Part shown: piece by piece, positions 1,093 to 15,253 of the stretch
Numbering within the stretch: position 1 is the stretch's first letter
Layout: each line of letters opens with the position of its first letter
Source of the DNA: a virus
IMG/VR virus record: IMGVR_UViG_3300045988_069534
Direction: 5' to 3' (one strand)
Length of the DNA stretch: 35,728 bases
The notes under the pieces: generated by a model
The model's database searches: none
What the model saw: only the letters and a program-made list of their open reading frames with translations
Told to the model about the DNA's origin: nothing
Made by a program: the position numbers and the translations under genes

Positions 1093-2112
1093 TCAAATTG
1101 TAGATCCGCAGTCCAGCGCCCCGTATTCCATTTTGCGTCGCTTGCAATCTTGCAGCATTGCTTCAAGGCAGCGCAGATCGTCTTCGTTCAAGTAGATGTA
1201 GTATTTTTCAAGCATTTTCAGTGCATGCAGACGCCGTGCATTCTCTTTTTCTTCTTCTGTTGTGTCGGTATCCGACGCCGACGGCTGCATCTGTGCCAGT
1301 GTGGCTTTTGTGTGTTCCTCTTCTGCCTTTTCTTCCTGCTCTCCGGTTGCTTCTTCCGGCTCTGTGTCTTCTTCCGGCTCTGCTGCCGCTGCCTTCTTCC
1401 GTTCGATCATTTCCTTGATCTCGGTTCCCTTTATGTCTTCGCCTGCTGCCGCACGCTCTGCAATGTCGTTCTGTTCCTCTTCTGACAGACTGCTTGCAGC
1501 TGCTGCCGCCGTCACTCCGATTGTTCCGGCTTCAAATTGTTCTTTCAGTGCATCTGTTCCGTTGTTGTTGATCCTGTTCCAGTCTCCCACGACTGCTGCC
1601 GACGTCTTCATGATCTTTGCTATGTAGTCCCGGACGCGGACGCCTTTTCCCGGCAGGAAAGATCCTTCTTCCTTCGCCTGCGTCAAAACTTCTTTCCACT
1701 CTTCCGCTTCAATCATCTTGTCATAATCGGTGTAGTGCCTGTTGAATGTGTTCCCGATCAGCATGTACAGTCTGAATTCTGTTTCCGTCATGTCCTTGTA
1801 TTTGCAAGGTACTTCCCGGTATTCTTCTTTCCCGTCCTTCACAAGCAGATCTACTGCTGCGTATCTTCTGTGACCGCCAGCAAGTTTGTATTCTCCGTTG
1901 ACGCGTCCCAAGATCAACGGATCCAGCAGCCCGCCCGCCATTTCAATTCCTGCTGCCAGATCTTCAATGTCGTTCATGCTGTACTTGTTTTTCCCTGTGA
2001 TCACAATTTTTCCGTAGTCCAGCTTGATTTCCTCAAAATCTTCTGTGACTGCGTTTTCGGTCTGTGCGGTTGTCTGTTTGTTCAGTATCTTTGTGATGTC
2101 AAAGCCTGCCAT
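1093..2112 (-). CDS. parB: ParB/Spo0J-like partition or ParB-nuclease-domain protein
   Basis: ParB N-terminal domain motif (LILGRVNGEYKLAGGHRRYAA). ATG at 2112 is preceded by GGGAAAGGAA and lies 17 nt after the parA stop. The upstream 69 codons of the ORF overlap parA. Confidence 0.85.
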   Translation of the reverse strand: MAGFDITKILNKQTTAQTENAVTEDFEEIKLDYGKIVITGKNKYSMNDIEDLAAGIEMAGGLLDPLILGRVNGEYKLAGGHRRYAAVDLLVKDGKEEYREVPCKYKDMTETEFRLYMLIGNTFNRHYTDYDKMIEAEEWKEVLTQAKEEGSFLPGKGVRVRDYIAKIMKTSAAVVGDWNRINNNGTDALKEQFEAGTIGVTAAAAASSLSEEEQNDIAERAAAGEDIKGTEIKEMIERKKAAAAEPEEDTEPEEATGEQEEKAEEEHTKATLAQMQPSASDTDTTEEEKENARRLHALKMLEKYYIYLNEDDLRCLEAMLQDCKRRKMEYGALDCGSTI

Positions 2113-2128
2113 TTCCTTTCCCTGCCTT

Positions 2129-2884
2129 TCACGCTTTCTTTGTGCCTGTGTACTCTTCCATGAATTTTCTGTAATCTGTCGCCGCTGCGGATCTTGGCGA
2201 ATATGTTTCAAGCGGCTGTTTGTAATATGTTGCTGACACTGCCTTGTCGCTGTGTCTGATCCTTCTGCTGAATACGTTGTATTTGCAGTTCTTCCGCAGC
2301 CATTCTTCCGCAGCTTCATTTTCGATTGACTTTTTGTAGTCCGTCAGCAAGATTCCTGCTATTTTCAAATTACTGTTCAGCGCTTTCAGCGTTTCGATCT
2401 GCTCCGTTATCACTTCCACGCCGTCAATCGACCAGTTATCAAGCCGCACTGGGATAATTACTTCATCCGCAGCGCACAGCGCGTTGATTGTACACATCAG
2501 AATTGCTGGCGGGTTGTCAATGATGCAGTAGTCATATATTGACGCCGCCTTTTCCATGTACTCTGCAAAACGGTTGTCTTGCCTGTCTTCGCTGGTTCGC
2601 AGTTCGTTGTCTGCTTCTAGCAGCGTCATATTTGCATTGATCAGATCCACGCCTGCTGCCACGTCAGCAAATATCCCCGGTCTTTCTCTGTCAAGTATCT
2701 TTGCTGCTCCGCATTTTTCATCTTTTCTGTAACAGTCAAAGAACTGGCTTGCGTTTCCCTGTGGATCATTGTCTATCAGTAATACATTTTTCTTGTACTT
2801 CGTCCCCAGTAGCGTTGCCATGTTCGCTGCCGTCGTTGTCTTCGCTACTCCACCTTTTAAGTTGATCACCGCTATTGTTTTCAT
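2129..2884 (-). CDS. parA: ParA/Soj-family partition ATPase
   Basis: Deviant Walker A at the N-terminus (MKTIAVINLKGGVAKTTTAANMA) and LLIDNDPQGN. RBS GAAGGAAAG upstream. Confidence 0.92.
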   Translation of the reverse strand: MKTIAVINLKGGVAKTTTAANMATLLGTKYKKNVLLIDNDPQGNASQFFDCYRKDEKCGAAKILDRERPGIFADVAAGVDLINANMTLLEADNELRTSEDRQDNRFAEYMEKAASIYDYCIIDNPPAILMCTINALCAADEVIIPVRLDNWSIDGVEVITEQIETLKALNSNLKIAGILLTDYKKSIENEAAEEWLRKNCKYNVFSRRIRHSDKAVSATYYKQPLETYSPRSAAATDYRKFMEEYTGTKKA

Positions 2885-4975: not shown

Positions 4976-5525
4976 TTATGCTTCCTTTAGTGGTTTTCTG
5001 TATTCTCTTAATTCTTCCAGAATCAGATCGCGTGGTAATATGTCTCGGCAGAAGTACGCCGTTGCAAAGCTGCTGCCTTTCTTGTATTCTTCCATGCTCT
5101 CTGCGTTATGGAACCCGATCCGCTTGTCGAATGTCAGAATCTGGATCCCGTTTTTGAAATACCTGTATCTACCAACGCCCTGCAAGCTATTAAGCGGCAG
5201 CAATACCGCAAACGGCTTTTCCAGTTCGTACAGCCTTTCGATCACTCTGTCTTTCTGCGTGTATGGCGGGTTGCTCACAATCACGTCGAAGTCTTCCGGC
5301 TGATATGTGAAGAAGTCCTGCCCGTCGTCTATGCTGCTACGCTCGACTTGCCACCCCCCGCTTGAATGTCTGGAAGTACGCTGACCATTCACAATCGAAC
5401 GGACACCAGATTTTTTTCGTTTTCGGTATGTATTTTGTGATCGGATCGACCGCATAGAACGGCGTGTACTGTTCGTTTCCCTCTTCCGTCCTTGCCGCTT
5501 TCAAATATCCTGTATTCAGTCCCAT
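4976..5525 (-). pseudogene. N6-adenine DNA methyltransferase (SNPPY motif), reading frame broken at a G6 tract
   Basis: The N-terminal frame (5337..5525, ...YTPFYAVDPITKYIPKTKKIWCPFD...) stops 6 codons after the G6 run. The second frame continues GGWQVERSSIDDGQDFF...DVIVSNPPYTQKD to 4976. Removing one G gives one continuous ORF. Confidence 0.8.
5354..5359 (-). repeat. G6 (plus-strand C6) homopolymer at the methyltransferase frame break
   Basis: Plus strand reads ccaCCCCCCgc. Frame A reads TTC AAG CGG GGG GTG; frame B reads GGG GGG TGG CAA GTC. Confidence 0.9.
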
Positions 5526-5527
5526 GT

Positions 5528-6352
5528 TTATTTCCTTCCTGCTGCCTTTTGCAGCTTTTCTGTGATTTCTACTTCCCCAGTCTCCAGATTCAGCAAATAA
5601 CTTTCTGATTCATCCTGCTTCCGGTATCTTCCGTCATAGATTAGCGTGTATGTGAAGTACATAAAGCCTGTTACTTCGTGCCATGCTTCCCGTATGCTGT
5701 CTTTGTCCAGATACCAGCCCGAAGGAACCTTGACAATGTGGTTAAATGCGTTTCTGGAAGAAACTGTCTTTTTCTGTGGCTCCGGGATCACAAGATTCTT
5801 GCTGCTGTTGTATCTTCTGCCCGTGAACCCTTCACATGTTTTCATGGTTTTTTCAGAGTATTTCACAAAGTATTCTGCAAGTCGCCTGTATTGCCCGTTG
5901 TCGTCCATGGGCTTTATTGTGATCCAGCCCTTGTCCCAGCACTTTTTCAATAGCTGTGTGTCTATGGCGTTCAGCGTCATGTGGATATGTACTGCCCCGC
6001 GTTCCCCTACTTCTGGAACCCAGACGATCTTTGCTTCCTTCCCAGCTTTCTTGTATATCCGGCGAATGTTCCGCAGCAGCTTGTCAACGTCTGTCCGCAG
6101 TGCTTCTTTTGTGGCTGGTCGGTTCTCCTTCATGTATTCCCATGTGATGTACAGTGATGTTCCGTCGTAGTTCGCATTGAGGATCCACGTCAGCTTCTTC
6201 ACTGCCTGTCTGCTGTTTACCTTCTTCTGTGCTTCACAGGTCTTGTTTTCCTTCTGTCTTCTGCTCCCTTCCTTTGTGTCGGTTCTGACTGCATAATAAA
6301 ACGTGTGCTGCTTTGTCTTTCCTGCTCTGCATATTTCATGTTTGTACGGCAT
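5528..6352 (-). CDS. HUH-type rolling-circle replication initiator (Rep_1 / phiX174 gpA-like motifs)
   Basis: Motif order is SLYITWEY (motif 1-like), AVHIHMTL (HUH), then AEYFVKYSEK (YxxKY tyrosine motif). ATG 6352 is preceded by AGGGGGGA. The ORF-track TTG start at 6394 is less likely. Confidence 0.6.
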   Translation of the reverse strand: MPYKHEICRAGKTKQHTFYYAVRTDTKEGSRRQKENKTCEAQKKVNSRQAVKKLTWILNANYDGTSLYITWEYMKENRPATKEALRTDVDKLLRNIRRIYKKAGKEAKIVWVPEVGERGAVHIHMTLNAIDTQLLKKCWDKGWITIKPMDDNGQYRRLAEYFVKYSEKTMKTCEGFTGRRYNSSKNLVIPEPQKKTVSSRNAFNHIVKVPSGWYLDKDSIREAWHEVTGFMYFTYTLIYDGRYRKQDESESYLLNLETGEVEITEKLQKAAGRK

Positions 6353-6396
6353 TACTGATCCCCCTGTTTGTCGTTGGAATAATAAACTTATCAAGT

Positions 6397-6420
6397 GTGA
6401 AAAGCGGCTGTAATGCCGCT
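6397..6420 (-). terminator. stem-loop plus short U-run just upstream of the rep RBS (possible attenuator)
   Basis: AGCGGC (6403..6408), 6-nt loop, GCCGCT (6415..6420). On the minus strand it is followed by TTTTCAC. Lies about 50 nt upstream of ATG 6352. Confidence 0.4.
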
Positions 6421-6426
6421 ATTTTC

Positions 6427-6455
6427 TTGACTTTTTCGCCGTACAATGCTATACT
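6427..6455 (+). promoter_or_regulatory. near-consensus sigma70-type promoter on the plus strand (antisense to the rep leader)
   Basis: TTGACT (6427..6432), 17-bp spacer, TGc-TATACT (6447..6455). Confidence 0.55.
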
Positions 6456-6461
6456 TTTATT

Positions 6462-6534
6462 AACGTTTTATTTTTATATTGTTTGTACGGTTCGCCGCTC
6501 GGAATTGCAGTTCCGGGCGGCGTTCTTCTTTTCC
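6462..6534 (+). ncRNA. predicted ~70-nt antisense small RNA (countertranscript candidate)
   Basis: Starts about 7 nt after the -10 element. Ends in a 12-bp hairpin, CGCCGCUCGGAA (6493..6504) / UUCCGGGCGGCG (6511..6522). The hairpin is perfect only in the plus-sense RNA (one G-U pair) and is followed by UUCUUCUUUUCC. No protein-like ORF. Confidence 0.4.
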
Positions 6535-6602
6535 AATCTTCATTTTGTGTCGGTTGTGGATCGTGTCTGCTGTGATATGCCGTCAGATTCCGGCTGTATG
6601 GT

Positions 6603-6998
6603 TTACTGTGTGAACTCGTCTGTGTTGGACGTCTCGCGAACTATCTTGATCTTATCCTTTGCCATCTGCATGATTCTTGCGCGCAGGCTCGTTTTGATAG
6701 TAATAATGATCTGCTTTGCTTTTTTGTCGCATACTTGGTCAATTCCTGCCAGAATGTATGCCAGCGTATCATCCGGCTGTGCATACTCTCCAGCGTCTTT
6801 TCCGAACAGTTCTTCTGCTCTCTGTTTTGCCACGGTTCTTCTGTTCGCCGTTTCTTGGTATGCCATAGCCTTTTCGCATGTGCATTGCATTGTTGCCGCT
6901 TCTTCCAGCTGCGGCGCTGTCATGTCTGCGCCACCTTCTATGATCGAACTCTGACCACAGAAGCGGCAGTTTCCCGTCTTGCTTTCTCCTTTTGCCAT
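6603..6998 (-). CDS. hypothetical protein (131 aa, N-terminal CRFC / CTC cysteines)
   Basis: ATG 6998 with GAGGAAGGAGA upstream. The longer ORF-track form overlaps the upstream gene. Confidence 0.7.
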   Translation of the reverse strand: MAKGESKTGNCRFCGQSSIIEGGADMTAPQLEEAATMQCTCEKAMAYQETANRRTVAKQRAEELFGKDAGEYAQPDDTLAYILAGIDQVCDKKAKQIIITIKTSLRARIMQMAKDKIKIVRETSNTDEFTQ

Positions 6999-9802: not shown

Positions 9803-10018
9803 CTATATCCCGGATCTGATCTGCTCCAGTTCTGCTGCCACATCAGCGCCGCTGTACTCTGCCAGCAGCTTTTCGCTGATCTGATACGTCCATTTTGTTG
9901 ACATTTTCAGCGCCGTTCCTATCGGCAGGATCCCGCGCTGCATCCCGATTCTGACGAACTGATCCGAAACGTGAAGCAGTGCTGCTGCTTCTGTTACCTT
10001 GATTTTTCCTGCTGTCAT
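9803..10018 (-). CDS. small HTH DNA-binding protein (excisionase/AlpA-like pattern)
   Basis: VTEAAALLHVSDQFVRIGMQRGILPIG resembles Xis/MerR-type HTH. Preceded by the conserved early-gene box. Confidence 0.55.
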   Translation of the reverse strand: MTAGKIKVTEAAALLHVSDQFVRIGMQRGILPIGTALKMSTKWTYQISEKLLAEYSGADVAAELEQIRSGI

Positions 10019-10027
10019 GTGTCTTCG

Positions 10028-10045
10028 CTCCTTTCGTCGGTGTGT
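10028..10045 (-). repeat. early-gene box copy 5 (ACACACCGACGAAAGGAG, minus sense)
   Basis: The minus strand reads TTAAACACACCGACGAAAGGAGCGAAGACAC-ATG(10018). Confidence 0.8.
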
Positions 10046-10870
10046 TTAATCTTCCCAGATCTCATTCGCTTCTTTTTCGCAATTCCTATCTATGAAATAC
10101 TGGTACAAAAATTCCTTCTGTGCTTTTGTATACCTCTTTCCCGGTGAAGTTGTCGGGATCGCGATTCCCTGCGACGGGTTATGCAGCAGCACCCAGCCGC
10201 GATCTGTCAGAAAATCGCCGTATGAAATGTATTTTCGTGCTTCCTGCTGCTTTTCTTCGTGTTCGTCGCCGTAAAACTCCGCGACGTGATCTGCCGCCCA
10301 TTCTCCGTGCATCCCGAATTCTACCGGGTGAAAAGTTCCGTTCGGCTCCAGCCACCCGTAATCGTCGTCGGTTCCTGTCTCCATGCGTTTTATGAAAGAA
10401 TCAAGAAGGGCGCTTCCGGTGCTTTCGCTTTCTTCTTCCATGTTGGCAAATAACTTTTCGCCCGTTTCTTCCCTGTACTGCTTCTGGGCTTCTCTCCTTT
10501 CCCAGCTTGACATGTAACCGCTTGCAACAAATCCCAGCTTTTCTTCTACTTGGTGCAGTTCCTTTTCTGCCTGTTCCGCTCTTTCGTGCAGCTTTTCAAG
10601 TGTTTTTGCAACGTTCCACCGTTCGTCCCTCTGATCAAGATAATGGAATCTGTAATCGTCGCCCGGATATGTCCCCGTTATCTCTGCGCGTCCGTCCAGT
10701 ATTGCAAAAGCCAGCCCCTTTCTTTCGTTGTCCGTGATCTCGTCGGATTCAAGGCAGCTTTCCAGAAGGTTTATTGCATATTCCATCTTCCCTTCATAGT
10801 GGCACTTCTCCCGCGCCAGCCGTGTGATAAAATCACCGTTTATGCTGAATGTCATTGTTCTTTCTTCCAT
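10046..10870 (-). CDS. hypothetical protein (274 aa, acidic)
   Basis: ATG 10870 is preceded by the conserved box, which includes GAAGGGAG. Protein-like composition. Confidence 0.75.
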   Translation of the reverse strand: MEERTMTFSINGDFITRLAREKCHYEGKMEYAINLLESCLESDEITDNERKGLAFAILDGRAEITGTYPGDDYRFHYLDQRDERWNVAKTLEKLHERAEQAEKELHQVEEKLGFVASGYMSSWERREAQKQYREETGEKLFANMEEESESTGSALLDSFIKRMETGTDDDYGWLEPNGTFHPVEFGMHGEWAADHVAEFYGDEHEEKQQEARKYISYGDFLTDRGWVLLHNPSQGIAIPTTSPGKRYTKAQKEFLYQYFIDRNCEKEANEIWED

Positions 10871-11166
10871 GTGTCTTCGCTCCCTTCGTCGGTGTGTGCG
10901 TTTCTCTCTGCTATGGTCAAATACTTGTCGTCGATCAGCTGATCTATGTCGATCAGATTCTGTCTGAACTGTTCTTCCTTTATATGTCGCCAGATCGTGT
11001 GCCTGCTGCCTATGTACATCAGCGATTGAAAAACATCTGTCAGCGTGTATTTTTCAAAAGGTCTGCTGCCGTCCTTAGCTATGTACTGCTGATAATTCGG
11101 CAATAACTCCCGCAGGGCTGCTTCTTCTTTCTCTGTCAAGTCATATTTGACCGTGTACTGTGTCAT
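10852..11166 (-). CDS. hypothetical protein (104 aa)
   Basis: ATG 11166 is preceded by a variant of the box. The 3' end overlaps the next gene by 19 nt. Confidence 0.7.
   Translation of the reverse strand: MTQYTVKYDLTEKEEAALRELLPNYQQYIAKDGSRPFEKYTLTDVFQSLMYIGSRHTIWRHIKEEQFRQNLIDIDQLIDDKYLTIAERNAHTDEGSEDTWKKEQ
10880..10898 (-). repeat. early-gene box copy 4 (CACACACCGACGAAGGGAG)
   Basis: The minus strand reads GCACACACCGACGAAGGGAGCGAAGACAC-ATG(10870). It lies inside the 3' coding end of 10852..11166. Confidence 0.8.
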
Positions 11167-11173
11167 GTCGTGT

Positions 11174-11193
11174 CTCCTTTCTTCGGTGTGTGG
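11174..11193 (-). repeat. early-gene box copy 3, variant (CCACACACCGAAGAAAGGAG)
   Basis: The minus strand reads AACCACACACCGAAGAAAGGAGACACGAC-ATG(11166). Confidence 0.7.
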
Positions 11194-11212
11194 TTATTTT
11201 CTCTTTATTTTC

Positions 11213-11241
11213 TTTATTTTTTTATTTGTTTCTGATATAAT
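11213..11241 (+). promoter_or_regulatory. extended -10 promoter candidate for the plus-strand unit
   Basis: TGaTATAAT at 11233..11241, with a weak -35 (TTTATT) 17 bp upstream in an AT-rich tract. Confidence 0.4.
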
Positions 11242-11275
11242 ATGTTTGTCGCCTTACGAAAGGATGTGATCGCGT

Positions 11276-11458
11276 ATGGTAATAGACAATATTGTATTTT
11301 CGGAAGAAATGAGCGCCGCAACCTTGACGGTTGCTATGCTCCCTTATCTTTCCTTTGAATATGAAAAAGCCTACAATACCGCCGATCTGCTGGAAATCGC
11401 TGTCAGAATATACAATGATATTCTTGATCGCTTTTCCGGCGTGAATTCTCAAAAATAG
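11276..11458 (+). CDS. small hypothetical protein (60 aa), the only plus-strand ORF inside the early region
   Basis: ATG with GAAAGGA 11 nt upstream. Balanced composition (MVIDNIVFSEEMSAATLTVAMLPYLSFEYEKAYNTADLLEIAVRIYNDILDRF...). Flanked by a promoter and a terminator on the same strand. Confidence 0.4.
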   Translation: MVIDNIVFSEEMSAATLTVAMLPYLSFEYEKAYNTADLLEIAVRIYNDILDRFSGVNSQK

Positions 11459-11481
11459 CCGCAAACTATTTTTTTTGATCC

Positions 11482-11530
11482 ACAAACCGACGAAGTATAC
11501 AACCGACGAAAATACACATCCCGACGAAAC
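11482..11530 (+). repeat. three tandem plus-sense copies of the box core (ACA..CCGACGAA)
   Basis: CCGACGAA occurs at 11487..11494, 11503..11510 and 11521..11528 (offsets 16 and 18 nt). Copy 1, CACAAACCGACGAAG, differs from the box by 1 nt. Confidence 0.75.
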
Positions 11531-11576
11531 TTTGCTGCTTATGCAGCACCACTAAATACAGGCGACATTCTATGGC

Positions 11577-11610
11577 AAGCGTTGTGTGTCCAGCACAGCG
11601 CTTGTTTTTA
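11577..11610 (+). terminator. plus-strand intrinsic terminator closing the small plus unit
   Basis: 10-bp stem AAGCGUUGUG (11577..11586) / CACAGCGCUU (11594..11603), including one G-U pair, followed by GUUUUUA. Confidence 0.5.
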
Positions 11611-11844
11611 TGTAAGTTCTACGAAGTAGTTGTCTTCTGTCTCTCTTCCTAAATCCTTGAAAAATGCGTAGCGGTTGCCGTTGTATTCTTCCAGAATCCC
11701 GTAAAATTCGATCTTTGCTCTGAATGCTCCGCGCTGCTGCACTGCTTCGTCGATATTTTCCAGCGTTGTGATTGTTCCCCATACGCTGCCGCACGTCACA
11801 TCATTTATACAATCAAGGCTGTATCTTCCTTTACTCTGCAACAT
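11608..11844 (-). CDS. hypothetical protein (78 aa)
   Basis: ATG 11844 is preceded by the conserved box. Overlaps the upstream gene by 14 nt. Confidence 0.7.
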   Translation of the reverse strand: MLQSKGRYSLDCINDVTCGSVWGTITTLENIDEAVQQRGAFRAKIEFYGILEEYNGNRYAFFKDLGRETEDNYFVELT

Positions 11845-12397
11845 TTTTTCTTTCTCCCTTCGTCGGTGTGTAGTCTTTCATCTCTACTGGTTCTTCGCTT
11901 GCGTCTTCCCCGGTTGCGTAGTTCTTGTCTGACGGGAAAGTGGTATATTGTCCCGTGTATATGCCGTACATCCCGGAACCACCCGAACTAAATCTGAACC
12001 ATGCCGGGCGCTTGCACAGTACGCGTTTTATTCCTATGCGTGCAAGTCCTTTTTCAGTGGTTGCCTGTGTCCATTTTACTGTACCGTCCGGCATTTCTAC
12101 GCGAAGTTTGCTTGTCTTTCCATATCCCGTGAAGGATCTGCACTGACACCACTTTGCATTCACTAGCACGCCGTCAAGCGTTGCGTATTCTACAAACCAG
12201 TCAAAGCCGCCGTTCTGGATCAGCTTTATTTTGTCCCTTGCAAGATCTCTTCCGCGTTCTTCCACTCTCATTGATACGAAGCAATCTTCTTGATCTGTTT
12301 CGCCATTGTTTATCCTGTCCCAACGGCGCGACATTTGATTTTCGTATCTTTCGATCTCTGCTTCAAGTTCCCGGATCAATTCTTCCCCATACTTCAT
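11831..12397 (-). CDS. hypothetical protein (188 aa)
   Basis: ATG 12397 is preceded by the conserved box. First gene after the cro-like gene. Confidence 0.75.
   Translation of the reverse strand: MKYGEELIRELEAEIERYENQMSRRWDRINNGETDQEDCFVSMRVEERGRDLARDKIKLIQNGGFDWFVEYATLDGVLVNAKWCQCRSFTGYGKTSKLRVEMPDGTVKWTQATTEKGLARIGIKRVLCKRPAWFRFSSGGSGMYGIYTGQYTTFPSDKNYATGEDASEEPVEMKDYTPTKGERKNVAE
11854..11872 (-). repeat. early-gene box copy 2 (TACACACCGACGAAGGGAG)
   Basis: The minus strand reads GACTACACACCGACGAAGGGAGAAAGAAAAA-ATG(11844). It lies in the coding 3' end of 11831..12397, in a different frame from copy 4. Confidence 0.8.
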
Positions 12398-14118: not shown

Positions 14119-14158
14119 CGCCTTTTTTCCGGTAATATACAGAAAGAAGGTGCTTTTT

Positions 14159-15253
14159 ATGGCAATGAAAAGAGCAAACGGCGACGGATCCGTCTTCAAA
14201 CTCACCGGGAAACGTCGCAAACCATGGGCTGCACGAATTACAATCGGCTGGCGTCTCGATCCTGCGTCCGGGAAGCTGACGCAGGAATACCAGCTGATCG
14301 GAACCTTTGCAACCCGGATCGAAGCTGAAACGGCTTTGAACGATTTCTTGCAGAATCCCTATGACATCAACGCACACAAGCTGACGTTTTCCGAAGTGTA
14401 CGACCTCTGGTCAAAGGAATACTACGCCACCTTGAAGAACGATTCCAGCGCCCGCAGCTACCGGGCGGCATACAAATACTGCGAACCGATCTTCAATGTC
14501 CGAATGCGTGATCTTCGCGTCTCCCACATGCAGGGCGTGATCAGTGACGCTGTTGTCGGTGATGCAACAAAAAGCCGCATGAAGTCGCTTTTCAATCTCA
14601 TGTACAAATACTGCATGATCCATGAAATTGTTGACAAGGACTACAGCGCACTATTTGTTCAAAAAGCAGGCAAACGTGACAAGGCTAAGCGTGTACCGTT
14701 CAAAAATAGCGAAGTGCAGCGCCTGTGGAAGATCCGCAGCTTTGGTGTTACGGACATGATTCTATTTTCCATGTACACGGGCTTTCGCCCTTCGGAAGTG
14801 TTGCTGATCGAAACTGTAAACGTGGATCTTGTGCGCTGGAGAATCAAAGGCGGCATCAAAACGGACGCCGGGATCGACCGGAGCGTCCCGGTGCATCCAT
14901 TGATCCGTCAGCTGGTACAGGATCACTATAACCCAGATAGCAAATACCTGTTCCCGAATGAGACTGGCGGCTTTATGACATACGATCAATACCGTGGGCG
15001 CTTCAAAAAGGTTATGCGCTATCTTGGGATCTCCCACACGCCGCATGAGCCGCGGCATACATTTATTTCATGTGCAAAGCATTTCAAGGTGAATGAAAAC
15101 TTGCTGAAAGCTATTGTCGGACATAAGATCAGAGACATAACAGAAGCCGTCTACACTCACAGGGCGTACAGCGATTATGAAGAAGCTGTGGCAATGATCA
15201 GCTATGATGGTGAAGACATAGAATTTGAATCAATCGACGCTGAATGGGATTGA
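14159..15253 (+). CDS. int: tyrosine recombinase / phage integrase
   Basis: C-terminal catalytic pattern (HEPRHTFIS...IVGHKIRDITEAVYTHR). N-terminal arm-binding-like NGDGSVFKL...RKPWAARI. ATG 14159 lies 6 nt after AGAAGGTG; the ORF-track GTG start at 14150 is inside the RBS. Confidence 0.93.
   Translation: MAMKRANGDGSVFKLTGKRRKPWAARITIGWRLDPASGKLTQEYQLIGTFATRIEAETALNDFLQNPYDINAHKLTFSEVYDLWSKEYYATLKNDSSARSYRAAYKYCEPIFNVRMRDLRVSHMQGVISDAVVGDATKSRMKSLFNLMYKYCMIHEIVDKDYSALFVQKAGKRDKAKRVPFKNSEVQRLWKIRSFGVTDMILFSMYTGFRPSEVLLIETVNVDLVRWRIKGGIKTDAGIDRSVPVHPLIRQLVQDHYNPDSKYLFPNETGGFMTYDQYRGRFKKVMRYLGISHTPHEPRHTFISCAKHFKVNENLLKAIVGHKIRDITEAVYTHRAYSDYEEAVAMISYDGEDIEFESIDAEWD

What the first reader, a model, noticed from the sequence alone, without database searches (positions are those of the whole stretch)
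5528..6602. HUH rolling-circle Rep gene preceded by a plasmid-like antisense-RNA and attenuator arrangement
The 274-aa ORF shows the three RCR initiator motifs in order: LYITWEY, HIHM (HUH) and YFVKYSEK (compare the phiX174 gpA / pC194 Rep tyrosine motif). The 250-bp leader upstream of it contains three elements:
- A near-consensus plus-strand promoter, TTGACT-17-TGcTATACT.
- About 40 nt downstream on the plus strand, a 12-bp hairpin that is perfect only in the plus-sense RNA (G-U versus C-A), followed by a U-rich run. This predicts an antisense RNA of about 70 nt.
- On the minus strand, a small hairpin plus UUUU about 50 nt before the rep start.

This resembles countertranscript-driven attenuation of rep in RCR plasmids such as pT181. 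Inside a tailed temperate phage it would be an unusual replication-control module. The large hairpin could alternatively be the double-strand origin.
Basis: partly seen in the sequence, partly recalled or inferred. Interest (0 to 1): 0.65.

Follow-up and report, generated by a model that had tools for sequence, protein, structure and literature searches.

The report
Phage Rep gene with antisense RNA
A temperate gut-bacterial phage carries a rolling-circle replication gene whose upstream leader encodes a conserved, previously uncatalogued ~70-nt antisense RNA plus a fold-back element matching the gene's start codon, suggesting plasmid-style RNA control of phage replication.

Summary
ORF 5528-6352 (minus strand) is an HUH rolling-circle initiator (Pfam PF23343, E 8e-16; phrog_3584, E 1e-52) in an integrase-bearing siphophage of Lachnospiraceae.

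The plus strand of its leader carries TTGACT-17-TGcTATACT (6427-6455) and a hairpin plus T-run (6493-6532), predicting a ~70-nt RNA antisense to the rep leader. About 30 diverged relatives, some with Rep only ~30% identical, keep:
- the -35 box, the 17-nt spacing and a TAnnnT -10;
- the terminator, with compensatory changes in 14 of 15 pairs and G·U pairs on the antisense strand.

A covariance model finds the element in 20 of 301 Lachnospiraceae genomes. Where a Rep ORF is present, the element lies upstream of it and antisense. Rfam has no match.

- An invariant CTTGATAA motif (6388-6395, minus strand), 4 nt after the small hairpin (2-8 nt in most relatives), resembles the pC194/phiX174 nick site. 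This, not the large hairpin, is the likely origin.
- The mRNA segment under the antisense promoter spacer pairs either with the sRNA target or with the rep start codon. It co-varies with the start codon across lineages (0 of 20,000 permutations).

Best reading: the antisense RNA represses Rep translation through a fold-back switch, closer to pMV158 RNAII than to pT181 attenuation. No expression data could be obtained. I rate it a new variant of a known kind.

The parts
5528..6352 (-). rep: 274-aa HUH rolling-circle replication initiator. Motif 1 is LYITWEY, the HUH motif is H122-I-H124-M, and the Tyr motif is Y161-FVK-Y165.
   Evidence: Pfam PF23343, E 8.3e-16. phrog_3584, E 1.3e-52. E114, H122, H124, Y161 and K164 are invariant in 8 relatives down to 30% identity.
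6359..6364 (-). Shine-Dalgarno sequence GGGGGA of rep, 6 nt before the ATG.
   Evidence: Read from the sequence.
6339..6352 (-). rep start-codon region AUG CCG UAC AAA CA. It is the target of the fold-back element (9 bp with arm 2). It is also an 11-nt perfect match to the sRNA 5' tail.
   Evidence: Repeats D4 and I5. TTGTACGG occurs 3 times within 150 bp, against 0.35 expected in the whole window. Lineage-specific covariation.
6358..6376 (-). CCAACGACAAACAGGGGGA, a degenerate copy of the phage's 'early-gene box' (ACACACCGACGAAGGAG) embedding the rep RBS.
   Evidence: Comparison with five early-gene starts. Conserved as TTTTAYCGACA..GG in relatives.
6378..6397 (-). Candidate double-strand-origin nick region CACTTGATAAGTTTATTATT. 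The predicted nick is CTTG|ATAA, between 6392 and 6391 on the minus strand.
   Evidence: ACTTG(A/T)TAA...TATTA is invariant in all relatives, including Arawn, phiCs5676-1 and L017 (PhiS63 has a looser GGCTTGTAATAGG form), at Rep identity about 30%. It shares CTTGATAA with the pC194 origin as printed in PMC7072734. Nicking was not tested.
6399..6420 (-). Small hairpin AGCGGC/GCCGCU (loop AUUACA) followed by UUUU. It is flanked by an A-tract and a T-tract and lies 4 nt 5' of the CTTG.
   Evidence: It covaries across lineages (ACGGGC/GCCCGU, AUGGGG/CCCCAU, CAAGGC/GCCUUG and others), with spacing to the nick motif of 2-8 nt in most. It is more stable on the rep-sense strand in 20 of 27 lineages.
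6427..6455 (+). Promoter of the antisense RNA: -35 TTGACT, 17-nt spacer, TG-extended -10 TATACT.
   Evidence: The -35 box, the 17-nt spacing (16 in one copy, L009) and TAnnnT are kept in all 20 loci examined, 14 distinct lineages. The scan tool detected it independently in L003 and L043.
6438..6446 (-). 'Arm 2': UUGUACGGC in the rep mRNA, which is the complement of the antisense promoter spacer. It pairs either with arm 1 or with the rep start region.
   Evidence: Inverted repeats I5 and I10. Stem 2 is present in all 14 lineages, with compensatory changes in 10 of 10 pairs on A6. Arm 2 against the start region.
6462..6532 (+). Predicted ~70-nt cis-antisense RNA: an AU-rich 5' tail of about 30 nt, then a single terminator hairpin, then a U-tail.
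   Evidence: Covariance model R1 gives 73.5 bits, E 7e-12 at 6423-6538. No Rfam family matches. The ends are predicted, not mapped.
6480..6490 (-). 'Arm 1': CCGUACAAACA in the rep mRNA. It is the partner of arm 2 and lies wholly inside the sRNA-complementary stretch.
6493..6532 (+). Intrinsic terminator of the antisense RNA: a 13-15-bp stem, a UGCA loop, and UUCUUCUUUU.
   Evidence: On a plain MAFFT alignment, 12 of 15 pairs show compensatory changes, 87% of cells are paired against 25-50% when slid, and 0 of 500 shuffles reach this. On 33 sequences, 14 of 15 pairs are compensatory. G·U falls on the antisense strand in 25 cells, against 4 A·C cells.
6544..6558 (-). CACAACCGACACAAA, a box-like element marking the upstream edge of the conserved module. 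A 14/15 copy lies inside rep at 6273-6287.
   Evidence: Repeat D2. Conserved as CGACACAAA in relatives. Function unknown.

Best explanation
The locus is the replication module of a temperate Lachnospiraceae siphophage. It has three linked parts.

1. **rep** encodes an HUH rolling-circle initiator.
2. **Candidate origin.** About 30-70 nt upstream of the rep ATG lie a small covarying hairpin and, a few nt after it, the nick-type sequence CTTG|ATAA.
3. **Antisense RNA gene.** Just upstream of the origin a near-consensus sigma-70 promoter fires against the direction of rep. It would make a ~70-nt RNA (an AU-rich 5' tail plus one terminator hairpin) fully complementary to the rep leader from -111 to -180.

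**Proposed mechanism (inferred).**
- In the nascent rep mRNA, arm 1 (inside the sRNA target) pairs with arm 2 (the segment under the antisense promoter spacer). This leaves the start codon free, so Rep is made.
- When the antisense RNA pairs with the AU-rich loop and arm 1, arm 2 is released.
- Arm 2 then folds onto the start-codon region (9 bp, GCCGUACAA, in this phage) and blocks ribosome binding.
- The closed form is also the slightly more stable equilibrium fold, so translation would be limited to young transcripts.

**Likely biological role.** In a lysogen, a constitutive sRNA would silence leaky rep expression and so prevent nicking and in-situ replication of the integrated prophage. After induction it would limit Rep dosage.

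**Shown:** the Rep family assignment; conservation and covariation of the promoter, terminator and stem 2; covariation between arm 2 and the start codon; association of the RNA with Rep.

**Inferred:** transcription of the sRNA; the direction of regulation; the nick site.
For: **Rep.** PF23343 and phrog_3584; invariant E, HUH and Y..K residues.

**Phage context.** Integrase, large terminase, major head protein, tape measure and SSB. Relatives are integrated in Lachnospiraceae chromosomal contigs of 26-385 kb, most over 100 kb.

**sRNA gene.**
- The promoter scores 10/12 with a TG extension.
- The -35 box, the 17-nt spacing (16 in one copy) and TAnnnT are kept in all 20 loci examined, 14 distinct lineages. 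These include phiCs5676-1 and PhiS63, whose Rep is only 31-33% identical, although the spacer sequence changes freely.
- Every relative ends in a strong hairpin plus T5-T8 on the antisense strand, 65-75 nt from the predicted start.
- Terminator covariation: 12 of 15 pairs on a structure-blind alignment and 0 of 500 shuffles; 14 of 15 on 33 sequences.
- G·U cells on the antisense strand number 25, against 4 A·C cells.

**Association with Rep.**
- Model R1 hits 20 of 301 Lachnospiraceae species genomes.
- 18 of 24 hit loci have a Rep ORF immediately downstream, always on the opposite strand.
- 10 of 17 further Rep loci also score E < 0.01 at the expected place.

**Switch.**
- Stem 2 is present in all lineages, with compensatory changes in 10 of 10 pairs on the model-fitted alignment.
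- The best complement of arm 2 within about 400 nt falls on the start codon in 15 of 26 lineages. Chance is about 6% per lineage, nominal p about 4e-12. There are about 10 different sequence solutions, including Reps that do not begin with MPY.
- Native arm 2 against the start region scores 7.5, against 5.3 for permuted pairings; 0 of 20,000 permutations reach it.
- The open and closed conformers are near iso-energetic: -62.7 against -64.2, -53.5 against -54.3, and -52.8 against -58.6 kcal/mol.

**Architecture.** A 5' tail plus a single terminator hairpin matches pMV158 RNAII (PMC4485353).
Against:
- **Target position.** The sRNA's cis-target lies more than 110 nt from the start codon, so repression must be indirect.
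- **No strand bias.** Stem 2 and the arm 2/start pairing show no G·U over A·C bias (13 against 14, and 5 against 6). RNA-level selection on the sense strand is therefore not demonstrated, and a DNA-level role for the three repeats remains possible.
- **Weak folding effect.** Simulated sRNA binding lowered predicted start-site accessibility by more than 0.05 in only 9 of 26 lineages (mean 0.47 to 0.41). In the window it did not change, because equilibrium folding already closes the site.
- **Exceptions.**
  - L013 and L027 show no arm 2/start complementarity.
  - In L005-type relatives, arm 2 instead matches the box 5' of the SD.
  - In L053 and L054 it matches the small hairpin.
- **Statistics.** The p-values ignore phylogenetic relatedness. 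The covariation counts on A5 and A6 come from model-fitted alignments.
- **Model specificity.** R1 also hit two IS3 transposase genes at E about 1e-5.
Confidence: 0.55

Rival explanations
1. pT181-type countertranscript-driven attenuation. Binding of the antisense RNA to the nascent leader makes the small hairpin plus UUUU (6420-6399) form, terminating transcription just before rep.
For: The hairpin plus U4 exists 50 nt before the ATG. It covaries and is followed by U3-U4 in about half of the lineages. In L053 and L054, arm 2 is complementary to the 3' arm of this hairpin (12 bp in L054), which gives an sRNA-sensitive alternative pairing. pT181 and pIP501 work this way (PMC5703833).
Against: - In the window and most relatives the hairpin needs no partner and competes with nothing the sRNA touches, so it would form constitutively.
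- The U-run is at most 4 U. It is replaced by GUUAUGAC or GUGACGGA in many lineages.
- In L053 and L054 the logic would be reversed: freeing arm 2 would prevent the hairpin.
- The hairpin keeps a spacing of 2-8 nt to CTTGATAA in most relatives. It persists where the sRNA module is absent, in Arawn, L077, L084 and L086, the last three with a variant motif.
Confidence: 0.12
2. The plus-strand transcript is a replication primer or single-strand-origin function. Its template is the nicked, displaced strand. It lies just 5' of the nick site, as sso elements do in RCR plasmids and as the minus-strand origin does in filamentous phages.
For: - Position and polarity fit. The promoter is 30-40 bp from the nick motif, on the strand opposite to it, so the nick-bearing strand is its template.
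- RNAP-dependent priming at ssoA and ssoU is established for RCR plasmids (PMC5703833).
- Stem 2 shows no RNA-strand bias, which is compatible with a structure formed in ssDNA.
Against: - The promoter is a canonical duplex promoter. In folded ssDNA its -10 would sit in a loop without a non-template strand.
- The RNA ends in a strong intrinsic terminator with a U-tail and antisense-strand G·U pairs. That signal releases the RNA from its template, which is the opposite of what a primer needs.
- This model does not explain why arm 2 co-varies with the rep start codon.
Confidence: 0.08
3. The act of transcription matters, not the RNA. A strong promoter firing away from the origin supplies negative supercoiling that helps extrude the hairpin and melt the nick site. 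Alternatively it acts by transcriptional interference with read-through from the early operon into rep.
For: The promoter is near consensus and lies directly next to the candidate origin, firing away from it. No rep-sense promoter is detectable in the leader, so rep depends on read-through that must pass the convergent promoter.
Against: This does not require a conserved stem 2, nor the lineage-specific match between arm 2 and the start codon. Relatives that lack the promoter still keep the hairpin and nick motif, so the origin does not need it. It could be an additional effect rather than an alternative.
Confidence: 0.1
4. The three related 8-11-nt sequences (6339-6349, 6438-6446 inverted, 6480-6490) are DNA binding sites, such as iterons or operators, for Rep or another phage protein. 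They would not be RNA pairing partners.
For: Three copies lie within 150 bp. They co-vary between lineages without any G·U over A·C strand bias. RCR initiators such as RepB of pMV158 bind direct repeats near their origins (title and abstract of PMC1851628, listed).
Against: - The third copy sits on the start codon (-9 to +13) in about 10 independent sequence solutions, whatever the N-terminal codons are. A translational operator explains this; an iteron does not.
- Copy lengths and registers differ between lineages.
- Arm 1 lies exactly within the sRNA-complementary stretch.
Confidence: 0.08

Closest known systems
pMV158 antisense RNAII / repB control (RCR plasmid, pE194 family)
   Same: A small countertranscript from a promoter inside the rep leader. 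Its anatomy is a single-stranded 5' tail, one hairpin that is the intrinsic terminator, and a U-tail (PMC4485353). It controls an HUH Rep at the translational level.
   Different: - RNAII (about 48 nt) overlaps the repB translation initiation region and blocks it directly. Here the sRNA target lies 111-180 nt upstream, and the block would be relayed by a fold-back element (arm 2).
- The Rep belongs to a different Pfam family (PF23343, not Rep_2).
- The host replicon is a 36-kb integrating tailed phage, and no CopG-like partner was identified.
pT181 RNAI/RNAII countertranscript-driven attenuation of repC
   Same: Countertranscripts from the rep leader of an RCR replicon. The leader has alternative pairings, and a hairpin plus U-run lies just 5' of the rep start (PMC5703833).
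   Different: The hairpin here is not mutually exclusive with an sRNA-sensitive structure in most lineages. Its U-run is weak and not conserved. The covarying alternative partner of arm 2 is the start codon, not a terminator arm. RepC is a Rep_trans protein, not an HUH protein.
pC194/pUB110 and phiX174 origins (nick consensus CTTG|ATA)
   Same: The leader carries CTTGATAA. The pC194 origin reads TTCTTATCTTGATAATAAGGG (PMC7072734). The Rep has the HUH motif and YxxKY, a phiX174 gpA-like pair of tyrosines; that resemblance is from memory of the gpA motif. pC194 and pUB110 also have predicted countertranscripts at the rep start (PMC5703833).
   Different: There is no profile match to Rep_1 or Phage_GPA, even at E up to 10. 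Nicking was not tested. The origin here has a covarying hairpin 2-8 nt 5' of the motif.
Phage antisense RNAs next to lysis-lysogeny or replication genes (lambda OOP, P22 sar, P1/P7 c4, P4 CI RNA)
   Same: Short, terminator-ended antisense RNAs encoded by temperate phages. OOP (77 nt) lies directly upstream of the lambda replication gene O. This comparison rests on established knowledge and was not tested here.
   Different: None of these controls a rolling-circle HUH initiator. OOP targets the cII mRNA. There is no sequence or Rfam relationship.
Butyrivibrio phage Arawn / Clostridium phage phiCs5676-1 / Clostridium phage PhiS63 replication modules
   Same: They are the closest isolated-phage homologues of the Rep, at 39%, 33% and 33% identity. 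Arawn and phiCs5676-1 keep the hairpin and ACTTGATAA motif before rep; PhiS63 has only a looser GGCTTGTAATAGG. phiCs5676-1 and PhiS63 also keep the antisense promoter, stem 2 and terminator.
   Different: Their records annotate only 'replication initiation protein'. No RNA gene or origin is annotated. Arawn lacks the sRNA module.

Membership tests
HUH rolling-circle initiators, Pfam PF23343 REP_ORF2-G2P / phrog_3584 | Profile match above the curated cut-off | tested here: met
   58.5 bits against a cut-off of 27.8, E 8.3e-16. phrog_3584 E 1.3e-52 over residues 1-250.
HUH rolling-circle initiators, Pfam PF23343 REP_ORF2-G2P / phrog_3584 | HUH metal-binding motif and catalytic Tyr motif, in order and conserved | tested here: met
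   H122-I-H124 and Y161-x-x-K164 are invariant in 8 sequences down to 30% identity, as is E114.
HUH rolling-circle initiators, Pfam PF23343 REP_ORF2-G2P / phrog_3584 | Site-specific nicking and joining at a cognate origin | not testable with these tools
   Only a conserved CTTGATAA candidate site was found.
Rep_1 (pC194) / Rep_2 (pMV158) / Phage_GPA (phiX174, P2) Pfam families | Profile match | tested here: not met
   PF23343 is the only Pfam family reported, even at E up to 10.
Antisense-RNA control of rep in RCR plasmids (pMV158 RNAII type) | Promoter in the rep leader reading against rep | tested here: met
   TTGACT-17-TGcTATACT. Conserved in all 14 distinct lineages examined, with 17-nt spacing in all but one copy.
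Antisense-RNA control of rep in RCR plasmids (pMV158 RNAII type) | Short transcript ended by an intrinsic terminator; 5' tail plus hairpin anatomy | tested here: met
   Covariation. G·U strand bias.
Antisense-RNA control of rep in RCR plasmids (pMV158 RNAII type) | The RNA is actually made | not testable with these tools
Antisense-RNA control of rep in RCR plasmids (pMV158 RNAII type) | The complementary stretch overlaps the rep translation initiation region | tested here: not met
   The cis-target is 6462-6532, that is 111-180 nt upstream of the ATG at 6352. Only an 11-nt trans match to codons 2-5 exists in this phage, and this is weakly conserved.
Antisense-RNA control of rep in RCR plasmids (pMV158 RNAII type) | Lowers Rep synthesis or copy number | not testable with these tools
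   Inferred from arm 2/start-codon covariation.
pT181/pIP501-type countertranscript-driven transcription attenuation | Rho-independent terminator just 5' of rep | tested here: inconclusive
   A 6-bp hairpin plus U4 in the window. A run of U3-U4 follows it in about half of the lineages, and never more than 4 U.
pT181/pIP501-type countertranscript-driven transcription attenuation | A pre-emptor pairing that prevents the terminator and is disrupted by the countertranscript | tested here: not met
   By inspection, arm 2 in the window offers only about 4 bp against the hairpin, and its best complement is the start codon. L053 and L054 do show arm 2 matching the hairpin 3' arm, but with reversed logic.
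pC194/phiX174-type double-strand origin | CTTGATA nick heptamer near or in rep | tested here: met
   CACTTGATAAG at 6387-6397 on the minus strand. Conserved in relatives at about 30% Rep identity. pC194 sequence in PMC7072734.
Rfam RNA families | Covariance-model match | tested here: not met
   Only two matches, at E 1.8 and 4.8 and far below their gathering scores; neither lies on the plus-strand sRNA at 6462-6532.
ssoA-type single-strand origin | Conserved RSB and CS-6 (TAGCGT) elements in a long ssDNA hairpin | not tested
   By eye only: TAGCGG occurs in the small hairpin of the window but is not conserved in relatives.

The most novel reading that the evidence does not exclude
A widespread, uncatalogued family of phage-encoded cis-antisense RNAs works through a three-part riboswitch-like relay (sRNA target/arm 1, anti-start arm 2, start codon). 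The relay gates translation of a rolling-circle initiator. It would act as a safety catch that keeps integrated prophages of gut Lachnospiraceae and Clostridia from nicking and replicating in situ. The promoter spacer of the sRNA gene would double as the anti-start-codon element of the opposite-strand mRNA.
Probability: 0.4. Interest if true: 0.7.

Novelty: new variant of a known kind. Interest (0 to 1): 0.55.

Why it matters
Antisense-RNA control of rep is textbook for small rolling-circle plasmids. I found no description of it for tailed temperate phages and no Rfam family.

The module is common. The Rep family is in 53 of 301 sampled Lachnospiraceae species genomes, and most examined Rep loci carry the RNA. 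The finding would therefore:
- add an RNA gene, an origin and a regulatory logic to the annotation of many gut prophages;
- give a testable example of one DNA segment serving both as a promoter spacer on one strand and as a translational operator on the other;
- offer a compact, portable replication-control cassette for genetics in Clostridia.

It also shows where rolling-circle replication of these phages probably starts.

Tried and rejected
- **DNA similarity to deposited phages:** none.
- **Rfam:** nothing.
- **PDB sequence search with the Rep profile:** only a chance hit, cystatin at E 0.1.
- **Distant Rep alignment A1 for the genome-contig scan:** rejected as too divergent. A2 was used instead.
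- **Large hairpin as the origin:** rejected because its sequence is free to vary with compensation and it always has an antisense T-run.
- **Leader peptide across the hairpin** (ATG at 6543, 27 codons): rejected, because near-identical relatives L001, L002 and L016 lose that ATG and change frame.
- **Plus-strand 44-aa ORF 6479-6613:** ignored, because the region has indels and no conserved frame.
- **Rep-sense promoter in the leader:** none found.
- **Direct trans pairing of the sRNA with the start region as the main mechanism:**
  - With RNAduplex energies, native pairs were no better than permuted ones (p = 0.54).
  - With a strand-neutral score the effect was modest (p = 0.009).
  - It is much weaker than arm 2 against the start region.
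- **Equilibrium accessibility modelling of sRNA binding:** gave only a weak average effect.
- **Weak CM hits L055 and L056:** an sRNA-like promoter, stem and terminator lie before non-Rep genes. They were too weak to interpret.
- **L047 and L048:** false positives inside IS3 transposases.
Full report
**1. What is there**

The window is a temperate tailed phage. It encodes:
- a tyrosine integrase (14150-15253, phrog_1, E 1.6e-45);
- a large terminase, a major head protein and a tape-measure protein;
- an SSB and a VRR-NUC nuclease;
- a ParA/ParB-like pair.

Nearly all early genes read on the minus strand.

The ORF in the finding is 5528-6352 on the minus strand (274 aa from ATG 6352, with SD GGGGGA at 6364-6359). 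It matches Pfam PF23343 REP_ORF2-G2P (E 8.3e-16), phrog_3584 'replication initiation protein' (E 1.3e-52) and phrog_3419 'rolling circle DNA replication initiation'. No other Pfam family appears, even at E up to 10. It is therefore an HUH initiator but not a Rep_1, Rep_2 or Phage_GPA member. E114, H122, H124, Y161 and K164 are invariant in eight relatives down to 30% identity.

**2.

- The plus strand has TTGACT-17-TATACT preceded by TG at 6427-6455 (10 of 12 consensus positions).
- A 13-pair hairpin at 6493-6522 is followed by TTCTTCTTTT. It folds at -26.6 kcal/mol, z = -5.35.
- The small hairpin at 6403-6420 is followed on the minus strand by UUUU, 50 nt before the ATG.
- Counts of such sites in this region are not above shuffled expectation, so the case rests on comparative evidence.

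**3. Relatives**

- The protein finds 19 IMG/VR contigs at 72-100% identity, plus two at 33%.
- It finds 11 loci in genome assemblies. Most are labelled Lachnospiraceae (Acetatifactor, Parablautia intestinalis, Roseburia hominis, Faecalicatena faecalis). They lie on contigs of 26-385 kb, most over 100 kb, so they are integrated prophages.
- Isolated phages with the same Rep family are Butyrivibrio phages Arawn, Idris and Closwp03 (39%), [Clostridium] scindens phage phiCs5676-1 (33%) and C. perfringens PhiS63 (33%).
- Plasmids give only four weak partial hits.
- A profile search finds the Rep in 53 of 301 Lachnospiraceae species genomes.

**4. The antisense RNA gene is conserved**

*Promoter.* In all 20 loci examined (14 distinct leader lineages) the antisense strand keeps an invariant TTGACT, a 17-nt spacer (16 in one copy) and a TAnnnT -10. 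This holds although the spacer sequence itself changes. The scan tool finds the same promoter and terminator independently in L003 and L043, and the terminator in L037.

*Terminator.* Each lineage then has an AU-rich tract of about 30 nt and a strong hairpin followed by T5-T8. This gives a predicted RNA of 65-75 nt.

*Covariation.*
- On a plain MAFFT alignment of 12 lineages, 12 of the 15 terminator pairs show compensatory changes.
- In that alignment 87% of cells pair, against 25-50% when the 3' partner is slid, and 0 of 500 shuffles reach the observed values.
- G·U pairs lie on the antisense strand in 25 cells, against 4 A·C cells.

*Covariance model.*
- Model R1 recovers phiCs5676-1, which was not in the training set (E 1e-3). 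It also points to the right place in L017 and L018, where inspection shows the same parts.
- On 33 model-aligned sequences, 14 of 15 terminator pairs and all 10 pairs of the main stem-2 helix are compensatory. That alignment is fitted to the model.

*Association with Rep.*
- R1 hits 20 of 301 Lachnospiraceae species genomes.
- Of 24 hit loci, 18 have a Rep ORF starting 60-170 nt beyond the -35 side, always on the opposite strand.
- Two hits are false positives in IS3 transposases, and four lack a Rep.
- Of 17 Rep loci missed by the genome-wide run, 10 score E < 0.01 at the expected place.

Rfam 15 has no match. Two literature searches found no description.

**5. Where the origin probably is**

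All relatives share ACTTG(A/T)TAA(A/G)..TATTA about 35-45 nt before the ATG (PhiS63 has a looser GGCTTGTAATAGG). This includes Arawn, phiCs5676-1 and L017, whose Reps are only 30-40% identical. In the window it reads CACTTGATAAGTTTATTATT (6397-6378 on the minus strand). It shares the octamer CTTGATAA with the pC194 origin as printed in PMC7072734. From established knowledge, it resembles the phiX174 gpA site CAACTTG|ATATTAATAAC.

The small hairpin lies 2-8 nt 5' of this motif in most relatives. It covaries (AGCGGC/GCCGCU, ACGGGC/GCCCGU, AUGGGG/CCCCAU, CAAGGC/GCCUUG and others) and is flanked by an A-tract and a T-tract.

Hairpin and motif persist where the sRNA module is missing, in Arawn, L077, L084 and L086, the last three with a variant motif. 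I therefore read the hairpin plus CTTG|ATAA as the double-strand origin. The sRNA module would be an accessory placed directly upstream of it. The large hairpin is not the origin. Nicking itself is untested.

**6. A second conserved structure and a link to the start codon**

TTGTACGG occurs three times within 150 bp, against 0.35 expected in the whole window:
- arm 1 at 6480-6490;
- arm 2 at 6438-6446, inverted, inside the antisense promoter spacer;
- a copy on rep codons 2-5 at 6339-6349.

*Stem 2.* Arm 1 and arm 2 form a stem around an AU-rich loop of about 36 nt that holds the -10 and the sRNA start. This stem exists in all lineages with different sequences (-10 to -22 kcal/mol). Arm 2 lies upstream of the sRNA start, so the stem can form only in the rep-sense RNA or in DNA.

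*Arm 2 and the start codon.*
- A strand-neutral search for the best complement of arm 2, from the -35 to +330 of rep, lands on the start-codon zone in 15 of 26 lineages. Chance is about 6% per lineage, nominal p about 4e-12.
- There are about ten different sequence solutions. Examples are UUGUACGGC against +2..+10 here, a perfect 13-mer against +1..+13 in L043 (Rep starts MYRYK), AAUCAUGG against -2..+5 in L044, and CAUCUG against CAGAUG in phiCs5676-1.
- Native arm 2/start pairs score 7.5, against 5.3 for permuted pairings; 0 of 20,000 permutations reach that, with one sequence per group.
- With RNAduplex energies on the first 12 lineages, native pairs gave -13.0 kcal/mol against -10.0 for permuted ones, p = 0.0004.

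*sRNA tail and the start codon.* The sRNA 5' tail itself is less well matched to the start region (6.3 against 5.6, p = 0.009). In this phage, however, it has an 11-nt perfect match.

*Energetics.* The conformers with arm 1:arm 2 and with arm 2:start are near iso-energetic.

**7. Mechanism proposed**

- During transcription of the early operon into rep, arm 1 pairs with arm 2 first. The start codon stays free.
- The sRNA is complementary to the loop, arm 1 and the hairpin. It displaces arm 2, which then closes the start codon.
- Without the sRNA, the mRNA would drift to the closed state anyway.

This is negative control of an initiator that acts stoichiometrically. It would be especially useful to an integrated prophage. 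The architecture of the sRNA (5' tail plus one terminator hairpin) is that of pMV158 RNAII (PMC4485353). Unlike RNAII, and unlike the predicted pC194/pUB110 countertranscripts (PMC5703833), it does not overlap the start site.

**8. Caveats**

- Stem 2 and the arm 2/start pairing show no G·U over A·C asymmetry. Selection at the RNA level is therefore inferred from position, not from wobble statistics.
- Simulated sRNA binding reduces predicted start-site accessibility only modestly (0.47 to 0.41; it falls by more than 0.05 in 9 of 26 lineages and rises in 2).
- L013 and L027 lack the complementarity. L005-type relatives pair arm 2 with the box 5' of the SD, and L053 and L054 pair it with the small hairpin.
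- The statistics ignore shared ancestry.

**9. Rivals**

- *pT181-type attenuation.* It is weakened by the self-contained hairpin, the short and unconserved U-run, and the hairpin's origin-like behaviour.
- *Primer or single-strand-origin role.* It fits position and polarity. It does not fit a released, terminator-ended RNA, nor the start-codon covariation.
- *Origin activation or transcriptional interference.* These may coexist with the proposed control but do not explain stem 2.
- *Iterons.* They do not explain why the third copy always sits on the start codon.

**10. Verdict**

The locus is an HUH Rep with a candidate pC194/phiX-like origin and a conserved, uncatalogued cis-antisense RNA. 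That RNA most likely represses Rep translation through a fold-back relay. I rate it a new variant of a known kind of control, of moderate interest, and it needs expression data.

Noticed in passing
window 6358-6376, 6544-6558 and 6273-6287 (minus strand): The rep leader and the rep coding region contain copies of the phage's 'early-gene box' core, (A)CCGAC(A/G)AA. One embeds the rep RBS (CCAACGACAAACAGGGGGA). One marks the upstream edge of the conserved module. A 14/15 copy lies in codons 22-27 of rep. The canonical box ACACACCGACGAAGGAG precedes five early genes at 10018-12397.
   Followed up: partly
window 1093-2884 (minus strand) with 14150-15253 (plus strand): A ParA (NF041546-like, E 1.5e-23) and a ParB-like protein (phrog_4715) coexist with a tyrosine integrase and the rolling-circle Rep. 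Close relatives of the Rep module are chromosomally integrated. Whether an episomal state exists is open.
   Followed up: no
window 4976-5525 (minus strand): Directly downstream of rep lie two overlapping ORFs (62 aa and 159 aa). The second has a sub-threshold Eco57I-type methylase hit with NPPY (E 8e-5). This looks like one adenine methyltransferase split by a frameshift.
   Followed up: no
L055 1501-1640 and L056 1501-1600: Weak covariance-model hits (E about 1e-3) show an sRNA-like unit (TTGACT-17-TATAAT, a stem around the -10, and a terminator) directly upstream of non-Rep genes. There is no nick motif. The antisense unit may be a portable regulatory cassette, or these may be chance hits.
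   Followed up: partly
L077, L084, L086 (upstream of rep): A sub-clade of the Rep family has a variant nick-like motif, AACA(C/G)TAT(A/T)A..TATATTAAAG, after the small hairpin. It lacks CTTG and has no antisense module.
   Followed up: no
L003-L008 against the window, upstream of the module: The gene upstream of the conserved leader differs between relatives. Its C-terminus looks methylase-like in L003-L006, other ORFs occur in L007, L008 and L013, and a phrog_24368 protein occurs in the window and the L009 group. The sRNA-origin-rep unit therefore behaves as an exchangeable cassette, with its left border about 45 nt beyond the terminator.
   Followed up: no
L037 1614-1630 (minus strand of the locus): The small origin-proximal hairpin is also called as a terminator on the antisense strand, because of its 5' A-tract. 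It could therefore act bidirectionally and shield the sRNA promoter from antisense read-through out of rep.
   Followed up: no
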